IMG/VR virus record: IMGVR_UViG_3300006056_000001
Coordinates: 96,001 to 160,000 of that record
DNA length: 64,000 nucleotides
Source: a virus
Taxonomy: Duplodnaviria > Caudoviricetes
Reading direction: 5' to 3' (one strand)
In this document: one piece after another, positions 3,653 through 25,736 of the stretch
Numbering within the stretch: position 1 is the stretch's first letter
Layout: each line of letters starts with the position of its first letter
Translations under genes and position numbers: made by a program
Notes under the pieces: generated by a model
The model's database searches: none
What the model was told of the DNA's origin: nothing
Seen by the model: the letters and a program-made list of their open reading frames with translations, nothing else

Positions 3653-4081
3653 ATGGATTTAAAAGAATCATTAAAAATAGCACTTGCTGATACTTTTGCT
3701 ATGTATTGGAAGGCCCACGAGTTCCATTGGAACGTAGTAGGTCCTAACTTCAGCGAATATCATTCTTTCTTTGGTGATTTATATGATGAACTTTGGGATG
3801 CATTAGATGTTATTGCTGAGCAAATTAGAATGCAAAAGACATTTATTCCTTCTTTAGAGAGACTATTATCTGTAAAGACTATTTCTGTATCTACTGGTCC
3901 TGTAGAGGCTTCTGTTATGATGAAGCAGCTATTACAAGATAATAAGAAAGTAATGGAATCATTACAATCAGCATATACTCTTGCTGAAGAAGCAGGTGAA
4001 TTTGCTTTATCAAATATTATACAAGATAGACTAAGCGCCCATGCTAAACATGGCTGGATGCTTGAATCATTTACTCAGTAA
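3653..4081 (+). CDS. dps: Dps / ferritin-like DNA protection protein
   Basis: KAHEFHWNVVGPNFSEYHSFF..LY.E.....D.IAE.IR and terminal KHGWML. Confidence 0.93.
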   Translation: MDLKESLKIALADTFAMYWKAHEFHWNVVGPNFSEYHSFFGDLYDELWDALDVIAEQIRMQKTFIPSLERLLSVKTISVSTGPVEASVMMKQLLQDNKKVMESLQSAYTLAEEAGEFALSNIIQDRLSAHAKHGWMLESFTQ

Positions 4082-4232: not shown

Positions 4233-5822
4233 ATGAATAAAAACCTTTTTAGCAATAAAACTCCTGGAAAGACTATCCCAGCTCCAAATACTGTTAATAA
4301 TGCTGGTGGACTTGCTTACTTAAGAGATGATGAATCTCAGTTAGCACAACTAGCTATTACAGGTTGCTTTGGAAATACTTACTATGTAAGTGCAGATAGC
4401 CAGCTAAAAGACGTTATTGCTTTAGCAAAGAAGTGCTCTCCTTTGTTTGTAGCACAAACGGCTATCTATGCTCGTAAGCAGGGCATGATGAAGGATATGC
4501 CGGCTGTATTAGCTGCTGTACTATCTACCAGAGATCTTCCTCTATTAAAGCAGATCTTCCCTGTTGTTATTGATAATGTTAAAATGTTACGTAACTTTGT
4601 ACAAGTTATTAGATCTGGCGTAGTAGGAAGAAAGAGCTTTGGTACTGCTCTAAAGAATCTGATACGTCAATATTTTAACAACAAGACGCCTGAGCAACTA
4701 TTTAAGCAGTCTCTTGGTACTTCTCCTTCCATTGGAGATATTATCAAGATGGTACATCCTAAGCCGAAGGATGAGGCTACTTCTATGACTTTTGCTTACT
4801 TAACTGGTAAGGAAGTCTTAGCTAAGGGCGCTCTACCCCAGCTATTACAGGATTACATGGCATTCCGTGAAGATCAGACTAAGGCTATGCCTAATCTGAA
4901 TTTCCAGTTCCTTTCTAGTCTACCTTTGACTAAGGAACAATGGACTCAGCTTTGTCTGACGTCTACATATAATACTTTACGTATGAACTTGAATACTTTT
5001 AATAGACATGGTGTATTTAAGGATAATACTGTAACTTCTAAGGTTATTGCCCGCTTGACTGATCCTAAGGAGATCAAGAAGAGCAAGGTAATGCCTTATC
5101 AGATTTATAGCGCATATAAGCATATTGATAGTGAATTGCCTCCTGGTATGGCTCAAGCTCTTGCCAAGGCTGCAGATATTTCCTTAGATAATATTCCTGA
5201 CTTACCTGCTAACTTGGTTATTGGTCTAGATACCAGTGGTAGTATGAGTTCTACTGTTACTGGTAATCGTGGAAGTGCTTCTTCCAAGATGAAGTATATT
5301 GATGTAGCTGCCTTGATGGCAGCAGCTATTGTGTCTAAGTGTCCAACTGCTACTGTTATTCCTTTTGATACTCGTTATCATAAAGGATTTAAGATGAAGG
5401 GTAGTATCGTAGATACTGCTGAAGCTTTATCTAAGTTTGGTGGCGGTGGTACTGAATGTTCTATTCCTATTCAAGAAGCAGCTAAGATGTCTAATGTAGA
5501 TGCTATTATAATTATCTCTGATAATGAGAGCTGGGCTTCTACTGCTCGCGACTCCATGACTGAATGGAGAAAGGTACAGAAGAAGAATCCTAATGCTAAG
5601 TTAATTAATATTGATATATCACCCTCACACTCTACCCAAACAAAGGATGAGCAAAATATTATAAATATTGGTGGATTTTCTGACTCTGTATTTAATGTTA
5701 TCTCTAACTATTTAAGTGGATCCATTGATCAGTGGATTGAAATTATTGAGAAAATCGATATTAGTAATACTCCTGTGACTACTACGTCTGTAGAGACGTC
5801 TGTAGAAAATACAGAAGAGTAA
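4233..5822 (+). CDS. Ro60/Rsr-like RNA-binding protein (TROVE + vWA)
   Basis: N-terminal NNAGGLAY...LAQLAITGCFGNTYY; MLRNFVQVIRSG..GRKS.G; vWA MIDAS LDTSGSM, GGGT, ISDNESW. Confidence 0.95.
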   Translation: MNKNLFSNKTPGKTIPAPNTVNNAGGLAYLRDDESQLAQLAITGCFGNTYYVSADSQLKDVIALAKKCSPLFVAQTAIYARKQGMMKDMPAVLAAVLSTRDLPLLKQIFPVVIDNVKMLRNFVQVIRSGVVGRKSFGTALKNLIRQYFNNKTPEQLFKQSLGTSPSIGDIIKMVHPKPKDEATSMTFAYLTGKEVLAKGALPQLLQDYMAFREDQTKAMPNLNFQFLSSLPLTKEQWTQLCLTSTYNTLRMNLNTFNRHGVFKDNTVTSKVIARLTDPKEIKKSKVMPYQIYSAYKHIDSELPPGMAQALAKAADISLDNIPDLPANLVIGLDTSGSMSSTVTGNRGSASSKMKYIDVAALMAAAIVSKCPTATVIPFDTRYHKGFKMKGSIVDTAEALSKFGGGGTECSIPIQEAAKMSNVDAIIIISDNESWASTARDSMTEWRKVQKKNPNAKLINIDISPSHSTQTKDEQNIINIGGFSDSVFNVISNYLSGSIDQWIEIIEKIDISNTPVTTTSVETSVENTEE

Positions 5823-5829
5823 CACATCT

Positions 5830-5919
5830 TGGTGAATGCAGAGTAGGATTACATTGTAACCATAATAACAAGCGGCCTTAGAAAGGCCGTTAAAACGGTC
5901 TTACTCACTTTTGTCACCA
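5830..5919 (+). ncRNA. Y RNA-like unit 1 (short, hairpin cargo)
   Basis: TGGTGA-ATGC...TTG-TCACCA closing stem; inner GAGTAGGA/TCTTACTC stem followed by TTACA. Confidence 0.7.
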
Positions 5920-5931
5920 TTTCATTATTCT

Positions 5932-5997
5932 AGCGGATGCTGACAGGACTACATTACTTGCTTTGTAAACATAGTGTCTTGTTAATAACTTGCCGCT
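5932..5997 (+). ncRNA. Y RNA-like unit 2 (minimal)
   Basis: AGCGG-ATGC...TTG-CCGCT; inner TGACAGGA/TCTTGTTA; CTACA. Confidence 0.65.
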
Positions 5998-6004
5998 TTA
6001 TTCT

Positions 6005-6132
6005 TGACGAATGCTCGAAGGGTTTACATTCATACGGAGAACGTGGACCAGGTGCGATTCCTGGAACCCCGACCATCGGGGTCATGGTGTAACAGTAGCA
6101 CACGAAAATAGACTCTTCAATTCTTGTCGTCA
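6005..6132 (+). ncRNA. YrlA-like Y RNA unit 3 with permuted tRNA domain
   Basis: TGACGA-ATGC...TTG-TCGTCA; T arm CCAGG TGCGATT CCTGG, acceptor stem with ACCA loop, then D arm. Confidence 0.8.
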
Positions 6133-6141
6133 TTTCTTTAT

Positions 6142-6275
6142 TGATCGAATGCTCTAAGGGATTACAATTCACTGTTAATGAAAAGGTCGTTGGTTCGAGT
6201 CCAACCCACCCCGCCAATGGGGTGGTAGCTCAGTTGGTAGAGCGTTAAAATAGTCTCTTAAATTTTTGTCGATCA
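6142..6275 (+). ncRNA. YrlA-like Y RNA unit 4 containing a complete permuted tRNA-Asn(GUU)
   Basis: TGATCGA-ATGC...TTG-TCGATCA; order anticodon arm, T arm, acceptor (GCCA), D arm. Confidence 0.82.
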
Positions 6276-6284
6276 TATTTTTCT

Positions 6285-6418
6285 ATAAGTGAATGCCTGA
6301 AAGGAATTACATTTTTTTTGAACAAAGAGGGACTGGGTTCGAATCCCAGCTTAGCTCGAAAGAGCTATGTGTTGTAATGGTAGCACTAAAACAATTTCTT
6401 TCGATTCTTGTCACTTAT
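6285..6418 (+). ncRNA. YrlA-like Y RNA unit 5
   Basis: ATAAGTGA-ATGC...TTG-TCACTTAT; T arm CTGGG TTCGAAT CCCAG; TAGCTC-GAAA-GAGCTA; D-like arm. Confidence 0.8.
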
Positions 6419-6424
6419 TTTCCT

Positions 6425-6547
6425 TCCGAATGCAGTTAGGACTACAATAACACTCTGGTGGTCAGAGGTTCAATTCCTCTAGTCCGCGAAAGCGGGCATA
6501 GCTCAGTGGTAGAGCACCAGATAAAGGTCTTAACAAATATCGTCGGA
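6425..6547 (+). ncRNA. YrlA-like Y RNA unit 6 (canonical layout)
   Basis: TCCGA-ATGC...TCG-TCGGA; T arm AGAGG TTCAATT CCTCT; GAAA-closed acceptor; D arm GCTC AGTGGTA GAGC. Confidence 0.82.
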
Positions 6548-6568
6548 TTTTCTTTTTAGAATAACAAA

Positions 6569-23437: not shown

Positions 23438-23584
23438 GGGTTCATAGCATAATGGTTAATGCTTTCTCAAACAAAAGCGGCTTAGATGACTCAGTAAGAT
23501 CACCCGGTATACAGGGCCTTGACTAAGTATTTAGGTTGGGAGTCACAACTCTCGATAGGGGTTCGATTCCCCTTGAATCCACCA
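23438..23584 (+). ncRNA. tRNA-Ala-like RNA with about 85-nt insert replacing the anticodon arm
   Basis: GGGTTCA/TGAATCC-A-CCA (G3:U70, A73); D arm GCAT AATGGTTA ATGC; T arm AGGGG TTCGATT CCCCT. Confidence 0.75.
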
Positions 23585-25584: not shown

Positions 25585-25659
25585 GTCCGTGTGGTGTAAT
25601 TGGTAGCACAGCAGATTTTGACTCTGTTAGCCCGGTTTCAAATCCAGTCAGACAACCCA
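25585..25659 (+). pseudogene. Chimeric tRNA-Gln(UUG)/His pseudogene
   Basis: Gln D and anticodon arms (GCAGA-TTTTGAC-TCTGT), but 3' end AGACAACCCA matches tRNA-His and does not pair with the 5' end. Confidence 0.7.
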
Positions 25660-25660
25660 T

Positions 25661-25736
25661 GGGTCATTAGCATAACGGTTAATGCGCAGAGCTGTTAACT
25701 CTGACTATCCGAGTTCGATTCTCGGGTGGCCCTCCA
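25661..25736 (+). tRNA. tRNA-Asn(GUU)
   Basis: CAGAG-CTGTTAA-CTCTG; CCA. Confidence 0.9.

What the first reader, a model, noticed from the sequence alone, without database searches (positions are those of the whole stretch)
6168..6244. Complete circularly permuted tRNA-Asn inside a Y RNA
Seen: TTCA-CTGTTAA-TGAA (anticodon GUU), AGGTC, GTTGG-TTCGAGT-CCAAC, CCACCCC-G-CCA, AT, GGGGTGG-TA-GCTC-AGTTGGTA-GAGC. Every tRNA element is present, including G73 (the Asn discriminator) and CCA, opened between the D and anticodon arms. Canonical YrlA has no anticodon loop. Inference: RNase P cleavage plus 3' trimming would give a two-piece, chargeable, Ro60-tethered tRNA or an anticodon-nuclease decoy. It also looks like a captured junction of two tandem tRNA genes. 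The other units read as a decay series from it (4, 3, 5, 6, 1, 2).
Basis: partly seen in the sequence, partly recalled or inferred. Interest (0 to 1): 0.8.

Follow-up and report, generated by a model that had tools for sequence, protein, structure and literature searches.

The report
Phage Y RNA with whole tRNA-Asn
One of six small RNAs encoded after a phage's Ro60 gene is a known kind of tRNA-mimicking Y RNA (YrlA) that also carries a complete asparagine-type anticodon arm and a CCA end; the same arm recurs beside Ro60 genes in many phages and bacteria, which gives a concrete lead to the unknown partner of these RNAs.

Summary
Window 6168-6244 holds every tRNA element in permuted order: anticodon arm, variable loop, T arm, acceptor 3' strand, GCCA, AU, acceptor 5' strand, D arm. 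Joined the normal way round, ARAGORN calls it tRNA-Asn(GUU).

It is the effector module of unit 4 (6142-6278) of six Y RNAs that follow a phage Ro60 gene. Unit 4 matches Rfam YrlA at 56 bits (E 9e-12), below the cut-off of 69.

The anticodon hairpin is not chance or decay. Hairpins with a 7-nt anticodon-type loop sit at the same place in 13 of 31 permuted units beside phage Ro60 genes, against 1.2 expected. CUGUUAA is the commonest loop. It recurs in about 17 independent phage units, including Caulobacter phage CcrColossus, and beside Ro60 in five bacterial genomes. The stems covary.

Chen et al. 2014 mention a fourth stem-loop "V" and read it as a variable arm. I found no paper that reads it as an anticodon arm.

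The encoded GCCA is rare; most relatives cap the acceptor stem with a tetraloop. The "decay series" reading is not supported. Origin from a tandem tRNA-Asn pair is plausible but ancient. Function is inferred: a Ro60-docked tRNA-Asn mimic, probably a bait for an anticodon-reading protein.

The scan had already noted related tRNA-shaped Y RNAs on other DNA. I class this as a new variant of a known kind.

The parts
4233..5822 (+). Ro60 (Rsr) gene, 529 aa
   Evidence: Pfam vWA_Ro60 7.9e-19 and TROVE 2.1e-7. More than 7000 homologues were found, the best at 93% identity.
5830..6555 (+). Array of six tandem Y-RNA units. Units 3-6 lie at 6004-6136, 6142-6278, 6286-6420 and 6423-6552. Units 1 and 2 start near 5830 and 5932.
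Evidence: Rfam YrlA hits for units 4, 6, 3 and 5 at 56, 49.2, 26.8 and 20.5 bits, and a weak YrlB hit at 5927-6002.
6142..6278 (+). Y-RNA unit 4, a YrlA-type RNA
   Evidence: Rfam RF02553 at 56 bits, E 8.7e-12, with a 16-nt insertion relative to the model. Fold.
6142..6164 (+). 5' strand of the Ro60-docking stem: outer helix 6142-6148, internal loop AUGCUC 6149-6154 (part of the CGAAUGC motif), inner helix 6155-6164, followed by CAA 6165-6167
   Evidence: Minimum-energy fold; alignment to the YrlA consensus.
6168..6182 (+). Anticodon-type hairpin UUCA[CUGUUAA]UGAA, anticodon GUU at 6174-6176
   Evidence: Conserved with covarying stems in relatives.
6183..6188 (+). A43 plus the 5-nt variable loop AGGUC (C48 can pair with G15)
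   Evidence: ARAGORN drawing.
6189..6205 (+). T arm GUUGG-UUCGAGU-CCAAC
6206..6225 (+). Acceptor stem closed by a loop: CCACCCC, then G73-CCA-AU (6213-6218), then GGGGUGG. The expected RNase P site is between 6218 and 6219.
   Evidence: The cleavage site is inferred from the M. smegmatis YrlA precedent (PMC4201824).
6226..6244 (+). U8 A9, D arm GCUC-AGUUGGUA-GAGC, and G26
6245..6275 (+). A-rich linker UUAAAA (it follows G26 at 6244; relatives share the form GYUAAAA), then the 3' strand of the Ro60-docking stem: inner helix 6251-6260, loop 6261-6268, outer helix 6269-6275
   Evidence: Fold. The linker is conserved in relatives.
6029..6041 (+). Unit 3 hairpin UUC[AUACGGA]GAA, a second anticodon-type loop (ACG) in the array
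   Evidence: The same loop with swapped stem pairs occurs in L055.

Best explanation
Unit 4 is a YrlA-class Y RNA. Its paired 5' and 3' ends form the helix that docks Ro60. Its effector module is a whole tRNA cloverleaf in permuted order, with the docking helix entering between tRNA positions 26 and 27.

Shown here:
- The anticodon-type hairpin is a conserved, selected part of many Ro60-linked RNAs in phages and bacteria.
- The Asn-type loop CUGUUAA is the commonest version.

Inferred:
- The hairpin is what Chen et al. 2014 called stem-loop V.
- The architecture descends from a head-to-tail pair of tRNA-Asn genes. This is the published dimer model; Streptomyces genomes still carry such pairs.
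- The module works as a Ro60-tethered mimic of tRNA-Asn that offers an anticodon loop to a protein that reads it. The most likely such protein is a host anticodon nuclease, which it would occupy or inhibit. An array with different loops (GUU in unit 4, ACG in unit 3) would then be a small panel of baits.
- In this phage, the GCCA-AU loop on a 7-bp acceptor stem is probably opened by host RNase P, as in M. smegmatis YrlA. That would leave two base-paired, Ro60-bound pieces with a CCA 3' end.

The confidence of 0.45 is for the whole statement, function included. The structural and comparative part alone I put near 0.9.
For: Identity:
- The Ro60 gene ends 320 nt upstream.
- Rfam YrlA matches at 56 bits, E 9e-12.
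- ARAGORN calls the un-permuted sequence tRNA-Asn.
- The minimum-energy fold is the Y stem plus four tRNA arms.

Selection on the hairpin:
- 13 of 31 strict permuted units in phage Ro60 loci have a hairpin with a 7-nt loop, U33 and R37. Shuffles give 1.2 +/- 1.1, with a maximum of 5 in 500.
- 15 of 17 distinct permuted units that carry a GUU-like loop have 3 or more contiguous stem pairs, although no stem was required to find them.
- On 17 aligned units, the three inner stem pairs hold in 16-17 of 17, with CG, GC, UA and AU swaps. Whole structure: 92.8% paired, against 63.8% shuffled and at most 44% when slid.
- RNAalifold predicts the hairpin on its own.

Spread:
- CcrColossus, upstream of its TROVE gene.
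- Klebsiella phage KP13-26.
- Amycolatopsis, Kitasatospora, Streptomyces, Cohnella and Haliscomenobacter, each with a Ro60 homologue in the same locus.

Origin:
- 41 loci, nearly all Streptomyces, hold tandem tRNA-Asn genes 3-11 nt apart (5-7 nt in Streptomyces), with complementary acceptor strands across the junction.
- The YrlA model scores such pairs at about 41 bits.

Processing:
- Most relatives cap the acceptor stem with loops such as CUUCGG, UCGG, GGAAAC or GAAA. Unit 4, L105 and L179 have GCCAAU instead.
- The phage's own tRNA-Ile and tRNA-Ala genes lie 3 nt apart with an encoded CCA.
- RNase P cleavage of M. smegmatis YrlA is published (PMC4201824).

Bait idea:
- Hughes 2020 (PMC7790460) propose that YrlA may competitively inhibit an anticodon nuclease.
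- GUU and UGU loops both occur in these Y RNAs.
Against: - There are no expression, binding, processing or cleavage data for this RNA.
- The host is unknown.
- Direct orthologues (Ro60 at 59-93% identity) could not be fetched, so conservation of GCCA in close kin is untested.
- The loops are not all from known nuclease targets: UGG, UCG, ACG and UGA also occur.
- No UUU (Lys) loop was seen, although tRNA-Lys is the classic target.
- The stem is short, at 3-5 bp.
- Topologically the hairpin sits where a variable arm would if the Y stem is counted as the anticodon stem. Only the linker lengths and loop signature favour the anticodon reading.
- Salmonella YrlA was not cut by the nuclease studied by Hughes et al.
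- The phage encodes no RtcB, Rnl2-type RNA ligase, CCA-adding enzyme or TGT that would tie the RNA to a repair pathway.
Confidence: 0.45

Rival explanations
1. The hairpin is purely architectural. It is the 'V' stem-loop of YrlA, kept because it stabilises the five-way junction or helps dock Ro60 or PNPase. Its tRNA-Asn look is inherited from the ancestor and held by the needs of a U-turn loop. No protein reads it as an anticodon.
For: Chen 2014 describe a less-conserved fourth stem-loop and treat it as a variable arm. The loop triplet varies between units. The stems are short. Salmonella YrlA and window unit 6 do without it. Phage and bacterial Y RNAs are known to bind PNPase (PMC12135203, PMC4201824).
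Against: The loop is better conserved than the T, D and acceptor arms around it. Identical CUGUUAA, AUACGGA or AUUGGGA loops sit on quite different bodies in distant phages. The U33/R37 signature is about tenfold enriched over shuffles. The 5-nt AGGUC spacer before the T stem fits an anticodon arm, not a variable arm.
Confidence: 0.25
2. Unit 4 is cut by RNase P, trimmed to CCA and charged with asparagine by AsnRS. The result is a two-piece aminoacylated tRNA-like RNA held on Ro60. Charging would protect the end or engage EF-Tu or other factors.
For: Unit 4 has G34 U35 U36 and G73, which are the E. coli tRNA-Asn identity set (established knowledge). It also has an encoded CCA, a 7-bp acceptor stem and U at position -1. 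M. smegmatis YrlA is cut and gains CCA in vivo, and its authors raise aminoacylation as a possibility (PMC4201824). Two other GUU units (L105, L179) also carry GCCAAU.
Against: Only about 3 of 17 distinct GUU-loop units keep CCA. The discriminator base varies, and most acceptor stems are capped by tetraloops, so charging cannot be the family's common function. The anticodon stem is 4 bp with an A-A mismatch, and a Ro60-bound helix projects from position 26/27. No test was possible.
Confidence: 0.12
3. It is a permuted tRNA gene. The Y stem is excised, the ends are ligated, and the acceptor loop is opened to give a working tRNA-Asn, as in red-alga permuted tRNA genes.
For: The gene order matches that class, and Wang 2018 raise the possibility for some YrlAs.
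Against: There is no bulge-helix-bulge motif; the termini form a 7 + 10 bp Y stem with the Ro60 motif. The phage has no RtcB or Rnl2-type RNA ligase. It already has a normal tRNA-Asn at 25661-25736. Relatives lack CCA and have capped acceptor stems.
Confidence: 0.03
4. It is a chance resemblance, or a decaying relic of a recently captured junction between two of the phage's tRNA genes.
For: The phage has 24 tRNA genes, some only 3 nt apart. BLAST aligns unit 4 to the tRNA-Asn/tRNA-Thr junction of phage P1 at 78% identity.
Against: Unit 4 is at most 74% identical to any of the phage's own tRNAs, and its own tRNA-Asn is not among the 8 most similar. The hairpin is conserved with covariation across phages and bacteria. 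No upstream 5' half or downstream 3' half of a tRNA flanks it.
Confidence: 0.03

Closest known systems
YrlA (Y RNA-like A; Rfam RF02553; Chen et al. 2014, PMC4201824; structure in Wang et al. 2018, bioRxiv 10.1101/312249)
   Same: It lies next to Ro60. Its paired termini carry the CGAAUG-type Ro60 motif. T arm, loop-closed acceptor stem and D arm come in permuted order, with the tRNA tertiary bases present. Arrays of several Y RNAs occur per locus.
   Different: A 15-nt hairpin with a full anticodon-type loop (Asn GUU) lies between the docking stem and a 5-nt variable loop. The published structure is described as 'lacks the anticodon loop', and the 2014 paper reads the extra stem-loop as a variable arm. 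GCCA is encoded in the acceptor loop. The score is 56 bits, below the Rfam cut-off of 69.
M. smegmatis YrlA (PMC4201824)
   Same: It has a 7-bp acceptor stem. It is cut by RNase P in vivo and in vitro. The two halves stay bound to Rsr, and the 5' half ends in CCA.
   Different: There the CA is added after cleavage and nibbling, whereas here CCA is encoded. I could not check whether the M. smegmatis RNA has the GUU hairpin.
Circularly permuted tRNA genes of Cyanidioschyzon and other algae (Soma 2007, as cited in 10.1101/312249)
   Same: The 3' half lies upstream of the 5' half, the acceptor stem starts as a closed loop, and the termini are paired.
   Different: Those genes use a bulge-helix-bulge motif, a splicing endonuclease and a ligase to make a real tRNA. 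Here the termini form a Ro60-docking stem and no such machinery is present.
Two-piece tmRNA from permuted ssrA genes (my own knowledge of alpha-proteobacteria and cyanobacteria)
   Same: A permuted gene gives a tRNA-like domain made of two base-paired RNA pieces with a processed CCA end that is aminoacylated.
   Different: It belongs to a different family (alanine identity, SmpB partner, mRNA-like part) and has no Ro60. The Rfam permuted-tmRNA hit here is noise (12 bits).
Tandem tRNA-Asn gene pairs of Streptomyces
   Same: The stretch from the first anticodon arm to the second D arm has the same order and spacing as unit 4's module, and the acceptor strands across the junction are complementary.
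   Different: Those are complete, separate tRNA genes with no Ro60 stem. They are the likely kind of ancestor, not a homologue in function.

Membership tests
YrlA / bacterial Y RNA | Encoded next to a Ro60 (TROVE + vWA) gene | tested here: met
   The Ro60 gene at 4233-5822 ends 320 nt upstream on the same strand.
YrlA / bacterial Y RNA | The 5' and 3' ends pair into a helix carrying the GNCGAAN0-1G motif on the 5' strand | tested here: inconclusive
   The helices 6142-6148/6269-6275 and 6155-6164/6251-6260 form. The motif reads AUCGAAUG: the CGAAUG core is present, but the first G is an A. Unit 3 has the full GACGAAUG.
YrlA / bacterial Y RNA | T arm, loop-closed acceptor stem and D arm in that order, with tRNA tertiary bases | tested here: met
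YrlA / bacterial Y RNA | Score at or above the Rfam gathering threshold (69 bits) | tested here: not met
   56 bits, E 8.7e-12; the 16-nt hairpin insertion costs score. Ro60-adjacent units of Actinomycetes, Cohnella and Haliscomenobacter also score 37-56 bits, so the threshold misses this subclass.
YrlA / bacterial Y RNA | Bound by Ro60 in cells | not testable with these tools
   Needs immunoprecipitation or a gel-shift assay (EMSA).
Functional tRNA-Asn | Continuous cloverleaf with the chain ends at the acceptor stem | tested here: not met
   The order is permuted. ARAGORN and the Rfam tRNA model do not call it in the native sequence at threshold.
Functional tRNA-Asn | Identity elements G34 U35 U36 and G73, plus a CCA end | tested here: met
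   Read from the sequence at 6174-6176 and 6213-6216. The identity set is from established E. coli work, not tested here.
Functional tRNA-Asn | 5-bp anticodon stem; aminoacylation; use on the ribosome | not testable with these tools
   The stem is 4 bp plus an A-A mismatch. Charging and decoding need experiments.
Permuted tRNA gene (algal/archaeal type) | Bulge-helix-bulge motif at the paired termini for a splicing endonuclease | tested here: not met
   The termini form a 7-bp and a 10-bp helix separated by a 6/8-nt internal loop. The phage genome has no RtcB or Rnl2-type RNA ligase.
Junction of two tandem tRNA genes | A complete upstream tRNA 5' half and a complete downstream tRNA 3' half flank the junction | tested here: not met
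   No D arm or acceptor strand lies upstream of 6168, and no anticodon or T arm follows 6244. The flanks are the Y stem.

The most novel reading that the evidence does not exclude
Phage and bacterial Ro60-Y RNA arrays are panels of tRNA decoys. Each unit presents a particular anticodon loop (Asn GUU here, Arg-like ACG in unit 3; Thr, Ile, Ser and Pro types elsewhere) to trap or inhibit host anticodon nucleases such as PARIS AriB or colicin-E5-like toxins, while Ro60 holds the bait. Unit 4 would in addition be opened by RNase P to a CCA-ended form that can be charged with asparagine. This would be a new RNA-based counter-defence and would name the long-sought effectors of YrlA.
Probability: 0.22. 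Interest if true: 0.85.

Novelty: new variant of a known kind. Interest (0 to 1): 0.6.

Why it matters
YrlA RNAs have been known since 2014, but their partner proteins and purpose are still open. The solved Salmonella structure is described as lacking an anticodon loop.

This work shows that many Ro60-linked RNAs, in cultured phages and in bacteria of three phyla, keep a selected anticodon-type arm, most often of asparagine type. That changes what the tRNA mimicry covers. It also points experiments at proteins that read anticodon loops: AsnRS, the tRNA-guanine transglycosylase TGT, enzymes that make the t6A37 modification, and anticodon nucleases of phage-defence systems.

It gives the tRNA-dimer origin model a concrete ancestor, tandem tRNA-Asn genes.

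It shows that the Rfam YrlA model misses this subclass and scores real tandem tRNA-Asn genes about as high as real YrlAs.

Unit 4, with its encoded GCCA, is a clean construct for testing RNase P opening and charging.

Tried and rejected
The contigs encoding the closest Ro60 proteins (P0001-P0008, 59-93% identity) could therefore not be read, and conservation of GCCA and the loop in direct orthologues is untested.
- The search for related loci with the single protein found nothing. The alignment-based run gave 80 loci at 50% identity or less.
- An exact 22-mer from unit 4 hit only an unrelated tRNA-Asn-like gene (L085).
- A relaxed regex scan was too noisy to use.
- No Rfam family reaches its threshold on the array.
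- The promoter and terminator scan was uninformative.
- Single-sequence folds of relatives do not always give the cloverleaf. The alignment-based fold does.
- The phage genome has no RtcB, PolyA_pol/CCA-adding enzyme, Rnl2-type ligase or TGT. That removed a repair or queuosine link encoded by the phage itself.
- The reviews by Sim and Wolin (2018) and Sim et al. (2020) are not held, so I cannot rule out that they mention the anticodon-like hairpin.
- Recent capture from the phage's own tRNAs is rejected.
- The decay-series reading is rejected.

Full report
**What is there.** The window is bases 96001-160000 of a 189.7-kb uncultured phage genome with terminal repeats. It holds at least 24 tRNA genes, all on the + strand.

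A 529-aa Ro60 gene (TROVE plus Ro60-type vWA domains) lies at 4233-5822. Six tandem small-RNA units follow it up to about 6555.

With permissive thresholds, the Rfam YrlA model matches:

| Unit | Coordinates | Bits | E-value |
|---|---|---|---|
| 4 | 6142-6278 | 56 | 8.7e-12 |
| 6 | 6423-6552 | 49.2 | 8.6e-10 |
| 3 | 6004-6136 | 26.8 | 0.0025 |
| 5 | 6286-6420 | 20.5 | 0.16 |

All are below the curated cut-off of 69 bits, and nothing on the array passes that cut-off. In each alignment, 11-16 nt are inserted between the Ro60-docking helix and the tRNA-like part.

In unit 4 the inserted bases plus their neighbours read UUCA-CUGUUAA-UGAA (6168-6182). After them come:
- A43 and AGGUC
- the T arm (6189-6205)
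- CCACCCC, then G-CCA-AU, then GGGGUGG (6206-6225)
- UA, then the D arm (6228-6243), then G26

All the usual tertiary-contact bases are present. Joined in the normal order, ARAGORN calls the sequence tRNA-Asn(GUU) in 8 of 9 junction variants.

RNAfold gives a five-way junction as the minimum-energy structure of 6140-6280. It consists of a 7-bp and a 10-bp docking helix plus the anticodon, T, acceptor and D hairpins (z = -3.8). The anticodon stem is 4 bp plus an A-A mismatch.

**Is the hairpin real? The unbiased sample.** I collected 80 Ro60-encoding loci from IMG/VR, with Ro60 at 50% identity or less to this one. I scanned them for permuted units using strict rules: T arm, then 7-bp acceptor hairpin, then D arm.
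- Of 31 distinct units, 13 carry a hairpin of 3 bp or more with a 7-nt loop, U at position 33 and a purine at 37, placed 3-7 nt before the T stem.
- Shuffled linkers give 1.2 +/- 1.1, with a maximum of 5 in 500.
- Loop triplets seen are GUU (the most frequent), UGU, UGG, GAU, GCU, UGA, UCG and ACG.

**The pattern scan for CUGUUAA.** A DNA pattern that fixed only TACA, YTGTTAA and the T loop found further permuted units with CUGUUAA in about a dozen more viral contigs, besides ordinary tRNA-Asn genes. No stem was demanded, yet 15 of 17 distinct permuted units have 3 or more contiguous stem pairs. Chance would give about 5%.

**Covariation.** On an alignment of 17 units (A3):
- The three inner pairs of the hairpin hold in 16-17 sequences. 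Pair types are CG 9 / GC 7 / UA 1, CG 8 / GC 3 / UA 3 / AU 2, and AU 13 / GC 2 / CG 1 / UA 1.
- The whole cloverleaf is 92.8% paired, against 63.8% after shuffling and at most 44% when slid.
- My filter for that alignment required 3 pairs, so the unfiltered count is the fair test.
- RNAalifold predicts the same hairpin unaided.

**Spread.** The same unit is present in these places:
- Caulobacter phage CcrColossus, as UUCGA[CUGUUAA]UCGAG, upstream of its TROVE gene.
- Klebsiella phage KP13-26, as a GCU version in an RNA with a different handle.
- Bacterial chromosomes of Amycolatopsis, Kitasatospora, Streptomyces, Cohnella and Haliscomenobacter. Each has a Ro60 homologue in the same 8-kb locus and a sub-threshold YrlA hit.
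- Other actinobacterial YrlAs, which carry CUGUCAA or CUGCGGA at the same place.

Several viral units lie next to divergent Ro60-like genes. For a few, no such gene was found in the record.

**What is in print.**
- Chen et al. 2014 (PMC4201824) define YrlA by the T, acceptor and D elements. [quoted passage not shown]
- Wang et al. 2018 (bioRxiv 10.1101/312249) state that Salmonella YrlA 'lacks the anticodon loop'. They cite the Sim-Wolin model of origin from dimeric tRNA transcripts and note the likeness to permuted tRNA genes.
- I found no paper that reads the hairpin as an anticodon arm or reports a conserved Asn-type loop. Two reviews are not held.
- Here the 5-nt AGGUC spacer before the T stem, the 7-nt loop and the U33/R37 signature fit an anticodon arm rather than a class-II variable arm. 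Only a structure can say which helix stacks on the D stem.

**The acceptor loop.** Most relatives close the acceptor stem with stable caps: CUUCGG, CUCCGG, UCGG, GGAAAC, GAAA, UUU. Their discriminator base varies. A free, chargeable end therefore cannot be the family's shared feature.

Unit 4 instead has GCCA-AU before G+1. L105 has GCCAAUUUAU and L179 has GCCAAUGU..., so they are similar. This looks like the real junctions in this phage's tRNA cluster: tRNA-Ile and tRNA-Ala are 3 nt apart with an encoded CCA.

M. smegmatis YrlA also has 7 acceptor pairs. RNase P cuts it in vivo and in vitro, and both halves stay bound to Rsr. Opening of unit 4 at 6218/6219 is therefore plausible but inferred; I put it near 0.5.

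**Origin, and the 'decay series'.** Un-permuted unit 4 is at most 74% identical to any of the phage's 24 tRNAs, and the phage's own tRNA-Asn is not among the 8 most similar. It is not a recent capture.

The genome scan found 41 loci, nearly all Streptomyces, with two tRNA-Asn genes head to tail 3-11 nt apart (5-7 nt in the Streptomyces pairs). The stretch from the first anticodon arm to the second D arm has unit 4's order, and the acceptor strands are complementary. The Rfam YrlA model scores these at 40.7-42.5 bits, as high as true YrlAs in the same genomes. This gives the dimer model a concrete and fitting ancestor, though that remains an inference.

The other units are not decay products of unit 4:
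- Unit 3's UUC[AUACGGA]GAA reappears as UCU[AUACGGA]AGA in L055. That locus also has a GUU unit, and its Ro60 is 42% identical.
- L047 and L077 share UCC[AUUGGGA]GGA on different bodies.
- Unit 6 is a good hairpin-less YrlA.

**How it most likely works.**

Shown here:
- a Ro60-adjacent YrlA-type RNA
- a complete permuted cloverleaf
- a selected anticodon-type arm

Inferred:
- The module mimics tRNA-Asn for a protein that reads the anticodon loop.
- Hughes et al. 2020 suggested that YrlA may competitively inhibit an anticodon nuclease.
[quoted passage not shown] Phages counter with their own tRNAs.
- Unit 4 and most GUU units read U36-A-A-U39.
- Arrays carry different loops in different units.
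- I therefore rank the bait or competitor reading first, at about 0.4.
- Next come a purely architectural hairpin (0.25) and a two-piece Asn-charged RNA (0.12).
- Maturation to a working tRNA (0.03) and chance or relic (0.03) rank last.
- The phage encodes no RtcB, Rnl2-type ligase, CCA-adding enzyme or TGT. Any processing would rely on host enzymes.

**Limits.**
- There are no expression data, and the host is unknown.
- The nearest isolate by Ro60 is Myxococcus phage Mx1, at 42% identity.
- Earlier notes of this scan had flagged this array and, on other DNA, related 'tRNA-shaped' Y RNAs. I used them only for the starts of units 1 and 2 and as context.

Noticed in passing
L085:1192-1316 (minus strand), a 412-kb viral contig: A tRNA-Asn-like gene (GGGAUAUAGCUCAGUGGUAGAGUA ... 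UUUA[CUGUUAA]UGAAA AGGUC ...) has a roughly 55-nt insertion between the D arm and the anticodon stem. This is the same 26/27 position where the Y stem enters unit 4. ARAGORN does not call it, and its T stem is imperfect. It may be an un-permuted cousin of these RNAs.
   Followed up: partly
L328, L330, L331, L335 and about 40 loci among L204-L321 (Streptomyces): Tandem tRNA-Asn(GUU) genes 5-7 nt apart without an encoded CCA. The Rfam YrlA model scores them at 40.7-42.5 bits, about the same as true YrlAs in these genomes. Sub-threshold YrlA hits therefore need a check for flanking tRNA halves.
   Followed up: partly
L203:2440-2720 (Klebsiella phage KP13-26, OP617743): Unannotated RNAs with a CAGCAA handle lie after a 476-aa hypothetical protein, inside the tRNA cluster. 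One carries UUCA[CUGCUAA]UGAA plus T, closed acceptor and D arms. The anticodon-type hairpin therefore also occurs in the other Ro60-like RNA family noted earlier by this scan.
   Followed up: partly
L028:~930-1080 and L179 (minus strand, loop near 563): These GUU-hairpin units have acceptor 'loops' of about 100 nt and 49 nt. L179's begins GCCAAUGU. They look like split or insertion-bearing versions of the module.
   Followed up: no
window 25585-25654: A weak tRNA-like element (Rfam tRNA 33 bits, anticodon-loop UUUUGAC) lies 6 nt upstream of the phage's tRNA-Asn (25661-25736). ARAGORN does not call it.
   Followed up: no
window 23438-23581: An Rfam tRNA hit of 39.7 bits spans 144 nt just before tRNA-Gly. 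ARAGORN does not call it. It may be a tRNA with a long insertion.
   Followed up: no
window 3653-4081: A ferritin-like gene (Pfam Ferritin 4.6e-19) sits between tRNA genes, just upstream of tRNA-Leu and Ro60.
   Followed up: no
L097:1303-1953, L104:2690-3325, L163:1768-2319: GIY-YIG and HNH homing-endonuclease-like genes lie within about 1-2 kb of GUU-hairpin Y units. This fits frequent shuffling of these RNA modules.
   Followed up: no
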